Shown here: piece after piece, positions 33,201 through 37,846 of the stretch
Position numbering within the stretch: position 1 is the stretch's first letter
Layout: every line of letters starts with the position of its first letter
NCBI GenBank assembly: GCA_951406725.2
Contig: OX597825.1
Location: 36,146,001 to 36,210,000 of the forward strand
Direction of reading: 5' to 3'
DNA: 64,000 nucleotides
Origin: Octopus vulgaris
Lineage: Eukaryota
The notes under the pieces: generated by a model
What the model was told of the DNA's origin: nothing
The model's input: the letters and a program-made list of their open reading frames with translations, nothing else
Databases searched by the model: none
Made by a program: the position numbers and the translations under genes

Positions 33201-36140
33201 CACAACGCGTCATTCGGTCCAGAAATCGAAACCACAATCTTACGATCATGGTGCTGACATACTAACGACTAAGCCACGTGCCTCCACGTGAAAATGTGAA
33301 ATACAAAGATATAAAACAATGGATTGAACGACAGTGGCACTAGAAACAATGTACACGAGGGTAGGTGTGGTCTCTCGGATCCTTGGCTAGCAACCTATCT
33401 TGTGATGGTCTCACGATATAAATATTGGTGATTGTACAACCTTACAAATGCTACCTCTAAATGAGTGATGTCAAAATTAAATAATAACCAGAATTGCGCT
33501 AACGGGACTGTAACTTAGCAGTGACGGTGTCATGCACGGCAGGTCGGGAGTATCTGATCAAGCTCCGACAGGTCGTCATCAAGCTATTGACCAGGACCAA
33601 AATCGTTGTGAAAAGTGCAAAAGAAAAGAATGAAATGGGAAAAAGATGAAAACAAAATAGTAATAGAATGCTGGCTGTGAAGTAAGCCAAATAAAAGAGG
33701 TTTCATGAATCGAATGGAGAAAATTTGGGGCGAACAGTGAAGGTCATGCGTATAATAATTGGTGCGTTGGGAACAGTAAGACAAGATATAGACAAATGGC
33801 TGAAGGAGATTGAAATAGAATGCCCGGTGCAACCCCATATAGAAAGTTTGTCTCTTAAGGACAGCAAGGATTATCAGGATGGTTCTAAGCACTTGAAAGA
33901 CCGCTGAAAACTTGTGGATACCTAAGGTTACAGGTAGTAACCAGCTATCCACATAATTCCTACCAGGAATAAGACCGAACCTGAGGCAAATCACAATAAT
34001 AATAATAATAATAATAATAATAATAATAATAACAATTTCATTCACTTGCCACTAGGGCGATAATGATAAGGATTTCAAATTTTAGTACCAGGCCAGCAAT
34101 TACGGAGATGGGGGCAAGTCGATTATATCGACCCTAGTGCTAATCTGGTCCTTACTTTATCGAACCCGAAAAGATGAAAGGTAAATTCCAGGTCATCCCT
34201 CATCAAGCAGGCCTATGGTCAATGGTATTCTACTCTAACCACCACACTTCCTCTTTAAATCCAAATATAGTGTATCTAGTAGTACCAAGTAATCCAATAT
34301 GTCCTTTATTCAAGATAGTAGCTGAGTTTTCGTCGATATCCACCGACAAGTTCTTTTGTTGAGATAGTTCCAGTAAGTGGTGATGGTCATAGTGATAATT
34401 CTAATATTGTTTTTGTTAATTTTTAACCCCAAATCAGTTGTGTTCAGCTATAGCTCTAATCATTGGCGATTGAACCGTAACCATCCTTTCCTTATTCACT
34501 GATATAATGTATCTAGGACTACATTATTCAACGACTACATGATTTACTTAACTTCTTATTTTTAAGACGTCTGGGTTTGATTTGATGGATTTGAGACGTA
34601 ACCAAATAGCTGAGATGAGAAAAATCCCAACTAACTGGATCTTTTGACTGAAGGGGAATCATGAGTTGGTAGACCACCAGTGGATCTGATCTGTCTCACT
34701 ATATATACATTGTCCTTTTTTACATTTACGTTATTGTTTTTTAGTTCCTGATCGGCCTTGATCAAGCAATCTGATAACCAAAGACAAACCAGTCAATCCC
34801 GTCTCGTTGTTTGAGATATAATGTATCGGTGATTACATTATCCAATAAGTCCTTTGCAGCTTAAAATGCAAATGGTGTATTTGACAGAGATCTGTAGTTA
34901 TTTCAAGTATGTAGAACAACCAAAATCGCCCACGTTAACTAGTTTTGTAATATAGGTAAACTTTGATCGGACATAGTTATGATCGAAGTCGTTCCAGCTG
35001 TGATCATCACATCTATACCTTGGTAAACTTAATCTCTAGGTTCTTACTCGGAGGTGGAATTCCAACCATTATGTTAATAGTTAATGCAGTGAATCATTTA
35101 AAAACAAAACTGAAAATAAGCCTTCAGAATTAGTTTTGAACCATTGGCAACTAGTACGAATCTCGACAACTGCAGACGTTTTCACCGGAATTTATATTAC
35201 AGGTGACAATAAAAAACTGGTCACCTATGACGTCACTCAGGTTAATAGGAAATGAAAATTGCAGACGACTAGGTAGAAGTTCCTACCTTACCAATTAAAG
35301 CACAAAACAAAAATTAAAAATTAAAATAGAAATGAATAACTGTATTCATTTCAACTGTTGCTTTTGCTATGTGTGTGTATATATATATATATATATATAT
35401 ATATATATATATATAATATACATACACACATGTTATACATACATATATATGTAAGTGTATGTATGTATGTATGTATGTGTGTGTGTGTGTGTGATGGGTT
35501 TCTCGTCGTGAACGACAAATGACCATTCAATGAAATAAAGCGGCGGTAATTATGTTCTATGGGCACGCATGTGTCTTTTGAGGCCTGCCGGTACCTTGCA
35601 AACCTTTTGGCAAATGGAATAAGCTCAGAACTCAGGTTGCACGAGTGCTTGTGGATAATTTGCTACATGTTATTTTGAGTGAACAGCAAGGCCTGCTTTG
35701 CTCCGAGCCATAAAATCACAATGACAGATAAGGTTTTCATTTAGAGGATCAGCGTTTTGCTAGCGTGCCTTCATGCTTGTACGAAGTTGGTCCCGATATT
35801 TGTTTTTATGTTCAGTTATAATAAAAACAGATTTACATTAATCTGATGGGTTACTCTATATTTTTGCAGAGTACAAATTCATTTATTCTTGTACAAGAAT
35901 GTTGTTGACAGTGACTTTGAATTTTCGGCCAGTAGGCAATCGTCGGACTTCAAATCACTGTGGACAACATTGTTGCATAATAATAATAATAATAATAATA
36001 ATAATAATACACACACACATGGTATAAAACTTTTCTTTTTTCTTATGGACTCAGGAATATAATAAAGACAAAAGGTAAAATTACTATACCTTGGTAAACT
36101 TAATCTCTGGGTTCTTATTGGGAGGTGGAATTCCAGCCAT
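9206..36140 (-). CDS. Omega-crystallin / ALDH1-2 family homologue, whole spliced gene (14 coding exons, 495 aa), predicted catalytically inactive
   Basis: Exons of 51,105,141,127,62,129,114,103,185,165,158,75,40,33 nt sum to 1488 nt and join in frame via GT-AG introns. ALDH motifs: [83 protein letters not shown] replaces GQCCCAG. Confidence 0.96.
10534..10573 (-). CDS. Omega-crystallin exon 13 ([13 protein letters not shown])
   Basis: ttcag| ... |gtgagt; 40 nt; phase 2/0. Confidence 0.93.
11170..11480 (+). mobile_element. Decayed DNA-transposon transposase fragment (Chapaev-like, tentative)
   Basis: Broken frames reading [33 protein letters not shown]. Confidence 0.55.
12443..12517 (-). CDS. 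Omega-crystallin exon 12 ([25 protein letters not shown])
   Basis: Translated by hand; tccag| ... |gtaagt; 75 nt; phase 2/2. Confidence 0.95.
12694..12915. mobile_element. mariner-like MITE
   Basis: Imperfect TIRs ACGAGGGGG...CTGAAAAGT / ACTTTTCAGTACCCCTTCGT between CA and GT repeats. Confidence 0.6.
13046..13150. repeat. 35-bp perfect inverted repeat, 35-nt spacer
   Basis: TTAAATTAGAGATAAAACCACTATTAGGCAACTCA and its reverse complement. Confidence 0.9.
14017..14174 (-). CDS. Omega-crystallin exon 11 ([11 protein letters not shown]...NTGTVW)
   Basis: tccag| ... |gtaagt; 158 nt; phase 0/2. Confidence 0.96.
14212..14400. mobile_element. piggyBac-like MITE relic (related fragments near 50735-50830)
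   Basis: TTAAaCCTTTTAG ... CTAAAGGG|TTAA ends. Confidence 0.6.
15144..15308 (-). CDS. Omega-crystallin exon 10 (IDEEQYNKV...GYYIEPTVF...KEE)
   Basis: ttcag| ... |gtaaaa; 165 nt; phase 0/0. Confidence 0.96.
15641..16061. mobile_element. MITE with 21-bp perfect TIR and 8-bp TSD (Merlin-like) carrying (CCCTAA)n
   Basis: TIR GGATCTTTTCGGTTTGAACGG / CCGTTCAAACCGAAAAGATCC; TSD CAATATTT at 15633-15640 and 16062-16069; related fragment at about 55690-55890. Confidence 0.88.
16279..16463 (-). CDS. Omega-crystallin exon 9 ([26 protein letters not shown]...EHGPQ)
   Basis: tttag| ... |gtaaaa; 185 nt; phase 1/0; contains the catalytic loop. Confidence 0.96.
18358..18460 (-). CDS. Omega-crystallin exon 8 ([34 protein letters not shown])
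   Basis: Translated by hand (absent from ORF track); ttcag| ... |gtaagt; 103 nt; phase 0/1. Confidence 0.95.
19592..19791. mobile_element. Small MITE-like element with about 33-bp imperfect TIRs
   Basis: CTATAAATAATAACTTGTAAATATTGGGTTGAAA versus TTTCAACTCAATATTTACATGCTATTATTTATAG. Confidence 0.7.
20026..20070 (+). ncRNA. Minimal type I hammerhead ribozyme candidate
   Basis: cacacg-CTGATGA-c gggt caat accc a-GAAA-c tcgg GTC-cgtgtg. Confidence 0.75.
20388..20501 (-). CDS. Omega-crystallin exon 7 ([15 protein letters not shown]...KVSFTGSTE)
   Basis: tctag| ... |gtaagc; 114 nt; phase 0/0. Confidence 0.96.
20951..21079 (-). CDS. Omega-crystallin exon 6 ([11 protein letters not shown]...[19 protein letters not shown])
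   Basis: tttag| ... |gtcagt; 129 nt; phase 0/0. Confidence 0.96.
21290..21935 (+). mobile_element. 3' fragment of RLE-type non-LTR retrotransposon
   Basis: [27 protein letters not shown]; same family and 3'UTR as 39025-39795. Confidence 0.8.
21945..22186. repeat. Long (TA)n/(GA)n microsatellite, representative of many: (TATG)n 3811-3923, (GA)n/(GT)n 7100-7303, (AAT)n 9434-9503, 32812-32931 and 53777-53860, (TCTA)n 30171-30284, mixed 36610-37090, triplet run 55493-55684
   Basis: Direct reading. Confidence 0.95.
24322..24383 (-). CDS. Omega-crystallin exon 5 ([21 protein letters not shown])
   Basis: aacag| ... |gtaagt; 62 nt; phase 1/0. Confidence 0.96.
25246..25372 (-). CDS. Omega-crystallin exon 4 ([11 protein letters not shown]...[17 protein letters not shown])
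   Basis: tacag| ... |gtaagt; 127 nt; phase 0/1. Confidence 0.96.
25720..26340 (+). mobile_element. RTE-like LINE 3' fragment (interrupted)
   Basis: [25 protein letters not shown]...GNRP. Confidence 0.65.
26781..27027. repeat. Diverged tandem duplication, unit about 127 bp
   Basis: CACAAGGTAAGCAA..TTTTTCCTAAATTTTTAA..ATGTCCAGG.TAAG occurs twice. Confidence 0.8.
29357..29497 (-). CDS. Omega-crystallin exon 3 ([10 protein letters not shown]...ERDIAHLS)
   Basis: tacag| ... |gtaagt; 141 nt; phase 0/0. Confidence 0.96.
30397..30737 (-). mobile_element. SINE family B copy, internally deleted
   Basis: High similarity to 45632-46272; other copies at about 48740-49209, 52570-52935, 38637-38790, 61449-61600, 14600-14770. 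Confidence 0.85.
31198..31302 (-). CDS. Omega-crystallin exon 2 ([14 protein letters not shown]...DVQEGSK)
   Basis: ttcag| ... |gtaagt; 105 nt; phase 0/0. Confidence 0.96.
31760..32440 (+). mobile_element. Two RLE-type LINE 3' fragments with (AAT)n tail
   Basis: [11 protein letters not shown]...[42 protein letters not shown]...IDVSVP...[12 protein letters not shown]. Confidence 0.85.
32437..32811 (-). mobile_element. Dimeric SINE family A copy
   Basis: Two tandem core units joined by a linker that recurs at 40915-41181. Confidence 0.8.
33040..33288 (-). mobile_element. tRNA-derived SINE family C (relatives at about 41440-41750 +, 5900-6110 -, 18160-18310 -)
   Basis: Head GTGGAGGCACGTGGCTTAG...GTTTCGATT; shared core GCGTTGTGTTCTTGAGCAAAACACTT..TTTCACGTTG..CCAGT.CACTCAGCTGGCAAAAATGAGT. 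Confidence 0.8.
33690..34032 (+). mobile_element. RLE-type LINE 3' fragment with (AAT)n tail
   Basis: [14 protein letters not shown]...[11 protein letters not shown]. Confidence 0.7.
35019..35069 (-). CDS. Omega-crystallin exon 1, proximal duplicate copy B ([17 protein letters not shown])
   Basis: Intact ATG, same 51-nt length and same AAG|gtatag donor; 3 amino-acid changes relative to copy A. Confidence 0.7.
35168..35240 (-). promoter_or_regulatory. Core promoter copy B with the same CRE/AP-1-like, TATA and Inr-like motifs
   Basis: TGACGTCA 35228-35235; TATAAA 35196-35191; GCAGTT conserved. Confidence 0.62.
36090..36140 (-). CDS. Omega-crystallin exon 1, distal copy A ([17 protein letters not shown])
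   Basis: ATG at 36140; ends AAG|gtatag in phase 0, matching exon 2; [11 protein letters not shown] is the typical ALDH1/2 N-terminus. Confidence 0.9.

Positions 36141-37846: not shown

What the first reader, a model, noticed from the sequence alone, without database searches (positions are those of the whole stretch)
35013..36390. Tandemly duplicated promoter and first exon of the omega-crystallin gene: two complete alternative starts
Seen: an approximately 300-bp block (35013-35315 versus 36084-36385) is duplicated about 1.07 kb apart. Both copies keep the CRE, TATAAA, Inr-like motif, 5'UTR, ATG, a 51-nt phase-0 exon and the GTATAG donor. They encode [17 protein letters not shown] and [17 protein letters not shown]. 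Homology ends 6 nt into the intron, where copy B abuts a truncated repeat. Inference: one gene body could be driven by two promoters, raising dosage or splitting tissue expression of a crystallin without whole-gene duplication. Caveat: 3 of the 4 coding differences are non-synonymous, so copy B may be decaying.
Basis: partly seen in the sequence, partly recalled or inferred. Interest (0 to 1): 0.8.

Follow-up and report, generated by a model that had tools for sequence, protein, structure and literature searches.

The report
Decaying spare start of octopus omega-crystallin
An octopus lens-protein gene carries a second, 89%-identical copy of its likely promoter and first coding exon about 1 kb inside its first intron, but transcript-like contigs were seen only from the upstream copy and the spare has picked up damage, so it is likely a decaying leftover rather than a working second start.

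Summary
The duplication is real. The gene is omega-crystallin: 14 exons starting from U give 495 of 495 identity to the Octopus sinensis protein.

'Two complete alternative starts' is not supported. Contigs from two presumed RNA runs (two studies) match U exactly and leave the genome at U's donor. No D junction was seen, but only 15 of 1,174 joints were shown.

D looks neutral. Divergence is even (promoter 15/147, downstream 18/159) and pN is about pS. Its three amino-acid changes hit residues kept in 9, 8 and 9 of 9 cephalopod orthologues. It gained two upstream ATGs and lost a strong splice acceptor that U has. Motif retention is only a mild hint of function (P 0.03-0.09). A DNA contig of another organism spans D's donor and intron, so the junction is old.

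Best reading: a relic of a partial 5' duplication (0.62). Rivals: minor second promoter (0.2), intronic enhancer (0.13). One contig hints at an unseen upstream exon.

The parts
36084..36390 (-). Copy U (upstream): likely promoter, 5'UTR, coding exon 1 and donor; the copy seen in transcript-like contigs
   Evidence: X10 and X12 contigs match with 0 differences and stop at 36090; 495/495 to P0006
36366..36390 (-). Pyrimidine tract plus CAG: strong 3' splice acceptor (exon would start at 36365), present only in U
   Evidence: PWM score 15.2, at or above 32 of 35 training acceptors, top 0.04% of background AG sites; X11 record 16 starts to fit at 36368 with 20 unmatched 5' letters
36299..36306 (-). 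CRE-type palindrome TGACGTCA, copy U
   Evidence: label recalled, binding untested
36263..36268 (-). TATAAA, copy U
36090..36140 (-). Coding exon 1 of [18 protein letters not shown]
   Evidence: identical to P0005, P0006, P0007 N-termini
35500..35800 (-). 3' end of a high-copy dispersed repeat (zinc-finger-like ORF end, then a CA-rich tail); LINE-like by inference, reverse transcriptase not tested
   Evidence: 3696 candidates, 40 scored, best 82% identity
35378..35493 (.). Microsatellite tail between the repeat and copy D
35013..35319 (-).
35295..35297 (-). Site of the lost acceptor in D (CAG in U reads TAA here)
35228..35235 (-). CRE-type palindrome, copy D (intact)
35191..35196 (-). TATAAA, copy D (intact)
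35095..35144 (-). Two upstream ATGs gained in D's 5'UTR (35144, 4-codon ORF; 35097, 7-codon ORF), both ACG to ATG
   Evidence: U has none in 225 nt
35019..35069 (-). Coding exon 1 of [18 protein letters not shown]; open, donor intact
34954..35014 (-). Dispersed repeat remnant that abuts D's donor
   Evidence: weak hits, E about 1e-5 in the genome search
37847..37934 (-). Fragment C: 88 bp of 5'UTR and codons 1-8 set in an (ATGT)n tract, no promoter; 93% to U, 87% to D
9206..31302 (-). Shared gene body, exons 2-14 of omega-crystallin (all GT-AG, no internal stop)

Best explanation
An old local duplication left a second copy of the omega-crystallin gene's likely promoter and first coding exon inside intron 1; the upstream copy U likely makes the mRNA, and the downstream copy D is likely a silent or near-silent relic decaying at about the neutral rate. 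Shown: the anatomy, the intact U-based ORF, two contigs that match U and stop at its donor, D's two gained upstream ATGs and D's lost acceptor. Inferred: U transcripts splice from 36090 to exon 2 and remove D as intron. D is skipped as an internal exon because its acceptor AG is gone; if included, it would put a stop codon four codons in, so that loss may have been selected. Any mRNA started at D would be translated poorly because of the upstream ATGs. Origin is unresolved: either a templated insertion beside microsatellites, as fragment C plainly is, or a long target-site duplication around the repeat 3' end in the spacer.
For: (1), table 8: X12 record 24 (1,835 nt) fits 36313-36090 and X10 record 8 (604 nt) fits 36409-36090, both with 0 differences. 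Both run on past the donor in other sequence (1,611 and 284 nt); 1,611 nt equals the remaining 1,437-nt CDS plus a 174-nt 3'UTR. Two studies, two organism labels; RNA status is the tool's guess. (2) Divergence is flat: promoter side 15/147, downstream side 18/159, Fisher P 0.85; the 30-nt identical run around the CRE is expected (permutation P 0.62). (3) pN 3/40.2 = 0.075, pS 1/10.8 = 0.092. A2 and P11 are kept in 9 of 9 and N8 in 8 of 9 orthologues with this exon, so all three changes are on D's branch. (4) With fragment C as third copy, 10 sites are D-specific, 2 U-specific and 3 C-specific of 84; U-to-D differences lean from GC to AT, 21 vs 9, P 0.04. (5) D has two upstream ATGs in 102 nt, U none in 225 nt; a neutral simulation gives at least two in 15% and at least one in 55% of 20,000 runs. 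(6) D lost the acceptor (score 4.0 vs 15.2). (7) Spaced two-copy local duplicates occur without any gene story: 150 bp or more in 2 of 40 random 10-kb stretches, 250 bp or more in 1 of 40, after setting aside 2 minisatellite stretches. A rough extrapolation gives about 13 (0.3-75) genes per genome caught this way (gene number of 23,000 assumed from recall). Fragment C shows that this very segment was copied a second time without a promoter.
Against: All 29 motif columns are intact in D (permutation P 0.026; 0.093 for the 19 core columns; motifs chosen after seeing them conserved). The frame is open and the donor is identical to U's. Leu at position 11 occurs in the active enzyme RALDH2, so D's N-terminus should fold. 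D's junction is old (X13 contig), so it has had time to decay and has not lost CRE, TATA, ATG or GT. X10 and X11 have low contig depth in the bin over D's exon (6.08 and 4.22), of unknown nature. The dN/dS test rests on 4 changes. No run of known lens tissue and no raw reads were examined.
Confidence: 0.62

Rival explanations
1. D is a working minor or tissue/stage-restricted second promoter: two overlapping transcription units share exons 2-14 and give a variant N-terminus.
For: CRE, TATA, Inr-like motif, ATG, frame and donor are all intact (P 0.026-0.093). CRE-to-TATA divergence is 3/44 (6.8%) against 33/306 overall (not tested separately). P11L matches RALDH2. The junction is shared with organism E. 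Low contig depth over D's exon bin in 2 of 3 presumed RNA runs.
Against: Two gained upstream ATGs, pN about pS at conserved residues, flat divergence. None of the 4 other members of the octopus protein cluster has the D-type N-terminus. Both contigs shown leaving at an exon-1 donor use U. The depth over D in X10 can also be explained by the U contig counted a second time (implied lengths 110 and 97 nt end at the homology boundary) or by intronic material.
Confidence: 0.2
2. D no longer starts mRNAs but is kept as an intronic enhancer: a second CRE module about 1 kb downstream of the start site that boosts U.
For: The CRE and its 30-nt surround are intact while the UTR and coding part show decay. 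TGACGTCA is rare: 6 in 400 kb of random sequence.
Against: The 30-nt run is what chance gives (P 0.62), and the promoter half is no more conserved than the rest (P 0.85). No chromatin data examined.
Confidence: 0.13
3. The duplication is an assembly artefact from merged haplotypes.
For: No single contig spanning both copies was listed; no DNA run of the window's own organism label was laid.
Against: The copies differ at 10.8% of sites, while contigs from two independent studies match U at 0 of 320 and 0 of 224 sites. The flanks of the two copies are unrelated. A DNA contig of organism E runs across D's donor into the downstream intron.
Confidence: 0.02

Closest known systems
Cephalopod omega-crystallin (ALDH1/2-derived lens protein; P0005-P0008, P0010)
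   Same: The U-based gene model is 495/495 identical to O. sinensis omega-crystallin. It reads GQCRW where RALDH2 reads GQCCT, i.e. Arg at the position recalled as the catalytic Cys. Omega-crystallin is expressed in squid lentigenic cells (PMC12240821, passages).
   Different: None of the papers listed or read describes a duplicated promoter/exon 1 in this gene (searches). The database protein P0002 uses a different, unsupported first exon at 41961.
PEP1 locus of Arabis alpina (partial tandem duplication of exon 1; PMC3527215, abstract and section 12 read)
   Same: The first exon and adjacent sequence are duplicated upstream of one shared gene body.
   Different: In PEP1 both exon-1 copies are shown spliced to exon 2, with independent start sites, different expression and unlike upstream sequences. 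Here only U is seen in contigs, the promoters are homologous, and D shows decay.
Guinea-pig zeta-crystallin dual promoter (PMC3554465, passage read)
   Same: An enzyme-crystallin with more than one possible start; the hinted upstream exon splicing into 36365 would resemble it.
   Different: There an alternative Pax6/Maf-dependent promoter drives lens expression and is demonstrated. Here the second element is a sequence copy and its use is not shown.
Scallop omega-crystallin/Aldh1a9 promoter (PMC5737492, section 15 read)
   Same: TATA-type mollusc ALDH-crystallin promoter with a stress-type element. A CRE role in it is recalled from Carosa 2002, not seen in the text read.
   Different: Not described as duplicated in the section read. 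Pax6 sites were not tested in the octopus block.

Membership tests
omega-crystallin | ALDH1/2-family protein orthologous to named cephalopod omega-crystallins | tested here: met
   495/495 to P0006; PF00171 and source names; best PDB hits are RALDH2
omega-crystallin | Catalytic cysteine replaced (cephalopod form) | tested here: met
   GQCRW vs GQCCT in RALDH2; neighbouring paralogues keep GQCC; which Cys is catalytic is recalled
omega-crystallin | High expression in lens-forming cells | not testable with these tools
   run tissues not given; reported for squid in PMC12240821 (passage)
Partial 5' gene duplication (duplicated promoter plus exon 1) | Two same-strand homologous copies of the 5' block upstream of one gene body | tested here: met
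PEP1-type overlapping genes / functional alternative first exons | Upstream copy is transcribed and spliced to the shared body | tested here: met
   X10 and X12 contigs stop at 36090 and run on; the join to exon 2 itself was not displayed and is inferred from lengths
PEP1-type overlapping genes / functional alternative first exons | Downstream copy is transcribed and spliced to the shared body | tested here: inconclusive
   15 of 1,174 joints shown, all in repeats; no D piece among the 24 RNA-run pieces listed
PEP1-type overlapping genes / functional alternative first exons | Purifying selection on both copies | tested here: inconclusive
   pN about pS on 4 changes, flat divergence, gained upstream ATGs; against this, motif retention P 0.026-0.093
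PEP1-type overlapping genes / functional alternative first exons | Independent transcription start sites and distinct expression | not testable with these tools
   all runs listed were contigs, which cannot show starts or levels
LINE retrotransposon (spacer repeat) | Reverse-transcriptase ORF upstream of the 3' end and tail | not tested
   only zinc-finger-like ORF ends and CA-rich tails seen in the spacer and in L005, L006

The most novel reading that the evidence does not exclude
Octopus omega-crystallin is run from three layered starts on one gene body: an unseen upstream exon spliced into the acceptor at 36365, the TATA/CRE promoter U, and D as a retained lens- or stage-specific second promoter. 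D lost its acceptor under selection so that it can start transcripts without poisoning U mRNAs. That would be crystallin dosage or tissue control by promoter duplication alone, kept across octopus species.
Probability: 0.12. Interest if true: 0.6.

Novelty: new member of a known kind. Interest (0 to 1): 0.27.

Why it matters
As a relic it is a minor curiosity. It is a clean example of how a duplicated 5' block is neutralised (acceptor lost, upstream ATGs gained), and a warning for annotation: the database model P0002 skips both copies and uses a first exon at 41961. If D proved active in lens, it would be a rare case of a crystallin changing output by copying its promoter rather than the gene, which contrasts with the 193 S-crystallin copies reported in bobtail squid (PMC12240821, passage). 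It would also give a natural matched pair of promoters, 33 substitutions apart, for mapping cephalopod lens elements. The hinted upstream exon would make the gene resemble the zeta-crystallin dual-promoter case.

Tried and rejected
Run search: no RNA holder listed on record; RNA labels are guesses. Small unlaid shares (X14-X20) were not used. Only 4 of 24 listed runs were laid.

Joint and loose-end tables were swamped by repeats in the stretch (15 of 1,174 joints, 24 of 3,009 loose ends, 32 of 143,449 pieces shown), and the count of runs holding a joined form was not given. The D-to-exon-2 junction could therefore be neither seen nor excluded.

Blanks, not used as evidence: X12 has no cover in the bin over D's exon (35044-35220) while covering U. 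X13 has no cover in the bin over U's exon (36106-36282), which would fit a single copy in organism E. No 153-nt D-exon piece is among the 8 pieces listed per presumed RNA run. The drop in X11 depth upstream of about 36230 would fit a main start near 36243, but contigs cannot show starts or levels.

Whether organism E has one copy or two could not be decided: 59 differences in record 31 fit either.

CpG decay as a sign of methylation: 4 of U's 9 CpGs are changed in D; not tested against the background C/G change rate, so not used.

Head-to-tail junction: no convincing similarity between the spacer and either flank (shuffle counts 11-264 of 300).

Promoter U has no homologue at the three ALDH paralogues' first exons in the stretches fetched.

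A new acceptor in D's UTR (35109) is weak (6.4, at or above 4 of 35 true sites) and was rejected as a likely cassette exon. Fragment C ends on a GT of modest score (5.8) but has no acceptor or promoter.

The splice PWMs are small (35 acceptors, 32 donors). They include one mis-picked donor (exon 11, corrected) and projected paralogue sites.

The repeat finder was swamped by microsatellites. Earlier-findings look-ups returned nothing. No relative's genome was available for comparison. No supplements were read; figure S9/S10 promoter alignments of PMC5737492 may bear on the motif labels.
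Full report
Observation. Both keep TGACGTCA, TATAAA, GCAGTT, ATG, a 51-nt phase-0 exon and GTATAG. A third, 88-bp fragment C (37847-37934) holds part of the 5'UTR and codons 1-8 inside an (ATGT)n tract; it is 93% like U and 87% like D. These three are the only matches in the 2.8-Gb genome.

The gene. Exon 3 finds omega-crystallins. A 14-exon model that starts at U is all GT-AG, has no internal stop and is 495/495 identical to O. 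sinensis omega-crystallin P0006. The window also encodes the odd first exon of the database model P0002, named O. vulgaris omega-crystallin by its source, so the animal is an Octopus of that group. The protein reads GQCRW where RALDH2 reads GQCCT. Two ALDH1/2-like paralogues that keep GQCC follow in tandem downstream.

Anatomy between and around the copies. The spacer is not a copy of either flank. It contains the 3' end of a high-copy repeat (35500-35800; 3696 candidates, 40 scored, best 82%) that ends in a zinc-finger-like ORF and a CA-rich tail; calling it a LINE is inference. Copies of this repeat differ from each other by 16-19%, so it is about as old as the duplication or older. After D's donor lies a weakly matching repeat remnant. 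Two origins fit: a templated insertion next to microsatellites, as C is, or a long target-site duplication around the repeat. They cannot be told apart without an outgroup genome.

Is it real and how old? Four of 24 listed runs were laid on 31150-36450. A DNA contig of organism E (X13 record 31, 832 nt) fits 34329-35159 with 59 other letters and 38 gap letters, crossing D's donor into the downstream intron. An exon-1-like sequence therefore sits on that intron in another organism, and the junction is not an assembly product. E differs from the window by about 5-8% in introns, against 11.6% (corrected) between U and D, which suggests that the duplication predates that split. E's copy number could not be read.

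Which copy is used? X12 record 24 (1,835 nt) fits 36313-36090 and X10 record 8 (604 nt) fits 36409-36090, both with 0 differences. Both stop exactly at U's donor and run on in other sequence. X12's remaining 1,611 nt equal the rest of the CDS (1,437) plus 174 nt of 3'UTR. The join to exon 2 was not itself displayed, and RNA status is the tool's guess, but this is how spliced mRNA behaves. For D there is no such piece among those listed. The bin over D's exon has contig depth 4.22 in X11 and 6.08 in X10; this may be D-type intronic material or the U contig counted again. The joint table showed 15 of 1,174 rows, all in repeats, so D splicing is neither seen nor excluded.

Does D look selected? 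Mostly not. Divergence is even: 15/147 upstream of the Inr-like site, 18/159 from there on (Fisher P 0.85). The longest identical run (30 nt, over the CRE) is expected by chance (P 0.62). pN is 0.075 and pS 0.092, on four changes. A2 and P11 are kept in 9 of 9 and N8 in 8 of 9 orthologues with this exon (P0002, P0012 and P0013 left out because they have other N-termini, and the short member P0014 was not examined), so all three replacements are D's. Over the 84 sites shared with C, 10 are D-specific, 2 U-specific and 3 C-specific; U-to-D differences lean from GC to AT, 21 vs 9, P 0.04. D has gained two upstream ATGs (35144, 35097) in a 102-nt 5'UTR, where U has none in 225 nt. A neutral simulation yields two or more in 15% of runs, so the gain is unremarkable for dead sequence and, by general knowledge of 5'UTRs, unwelcome in a working one.

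For function. All 29 motif columns survive (permutation P 0.026; 0.093 for the 19 core columns, motifs chosen after the fact), the frame is open, and Leu11 matches RALDH2. These roughly offset part of the case for decay, which is why a minor promoter keeps 0.2 and an enhancer role 0.13.

The 5' edge of U is a strong splice acceptor (AG at 36367-36366): score 15.2, at or above 32 of 35 training acceptors and in the top 0.04% of background AG sites (small PWM, one mis-picked donor in the donor set). X11 record 16 (depth 2.5, one contig) begins to fit at 36368 with 20 unmatched 5' letters, as a read spliced from an unseen upstream exon ending in CAG would. An allele difference or a contig-end error could also do this. 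In D this AG is gone (CAG to TAA). Had it stayed, D could be spliced into U transcripts as a 276-nt exon that reads TTG GTA AGG TAG, a stop at codon four. Loss of the acceptor is thus what protecting U's mRNA would require (inference).

How unusual? In 40 random 10-kb stretches, 4 had a local same-strand duplicate of 150 bp or more not shared with other stretches. Two were minisatellite arrays and were set aside; two were spaced two-copy duplicates, one of them 274 bp at 92% and 700 bp apart. Extrapolating from that single event gives roughly 13 (0.3-75) genes per genome whose core promoter and first exon would be caught by chance (gene count assumed). The arrangement needs no selection to arise.

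Known parallels. PEP1 of Arabis alpina has the same layout with both exon-1 copies shown spliced and differently expressed (PMC3527215; abstract and section 12 read). Guinea-pig zeta-crystallin uses a lens-specific alternative promoter (PMC3554465; passages). Scallop omega-crystallin's promoter has three Pax6 sites, one overlapping an ARE (PMC5737492; passages and section 15). Squid lentigenic cells express omega-crystallin (PMC12240821; passages). PMC13643694 was read as passages only. Searches listed no paper describing this duplication; the library lacks most subscription journals, and older JBC papers on omega-crystallin were not seen.

Verdict. A real, old partial 5' duplication of the octopus omega-crystallin gene. 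U is the start with transcript support; D is most likely a decaying relic (0.62), possibly a minor promoter (0.2) or enhancer (0.13), and very unlikely an artefact (0.02). Interest 0.27. Junction counts in lens RNA would settle it.

Noticed in passing
window 36366-36390 (-); X11 record 16: Strong acceptor upstream of promoter U and one contig with 20 unmatched 5' letters starting on its CAG: a possible unseen upstream exon or promoter for omega-crystallin.
   Followed up: partly
window 37847-37934 (-): Third, promoterless 88-bp copy of the 5'UTR and codons 1-8 inside an (ATGT)n tract, with 2-nt microhomology at both ends; looks like a templated repair insertion.
   Followed up: partly
G000:C12:36.04-36.13 Mb (L013-L022) and 32.01-32.04 Mb (L023-L024): Two ALDH1/2-like genes lie in tandem directly downstream of omega-crystallin and keep GQCC at the active site; a third about 4 Mb away has a longer N-terminus that looks like a mitochondrial leader (ALDH2-like, by eye). 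The crystallin sits in its likely parent cluster.
   Followed up: partly
window 41929-41961 (-) and 10495-10533 (-): Database protein P0002 uses a first exon at 41961 and reads into the last intron; both ends disagree with all orthologues, so the model is likely wrong.
   Followed up: yes
window 36084-36092 and 35013-35021 (-): The exon-1 donor AAG/GTATAG is weak (PWM 1.5, at or above only 3 of 32 training donors), yet contigs show U's is used.
   Followed up: partly
window 313-2192 (+): Broken ORFs with a gag/protease, reverse-transcriptase, RNase H and integrase look (by eye): likely a degraded LTR retroelement.
   Followed up: no
window 60370-61260 (-): Two ORFs that read like a mariner/Tc1 transposase in pieces (by eye).
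   Followed up: no
window 62942-64000, 58166-58598 and 40510-40915: Long inverted repeats (for example 63299-63487 with 63493-63681, 98% complementary, 5 nt apart); likely foldback elements or head-to-head SINEs.
   Followed up: no
window 21288-21939 and 39021-39680: Two inverted 660-bp copies (83%) of a repeat, one in an intron of the gene and one upstream of it.
   Followed up: no
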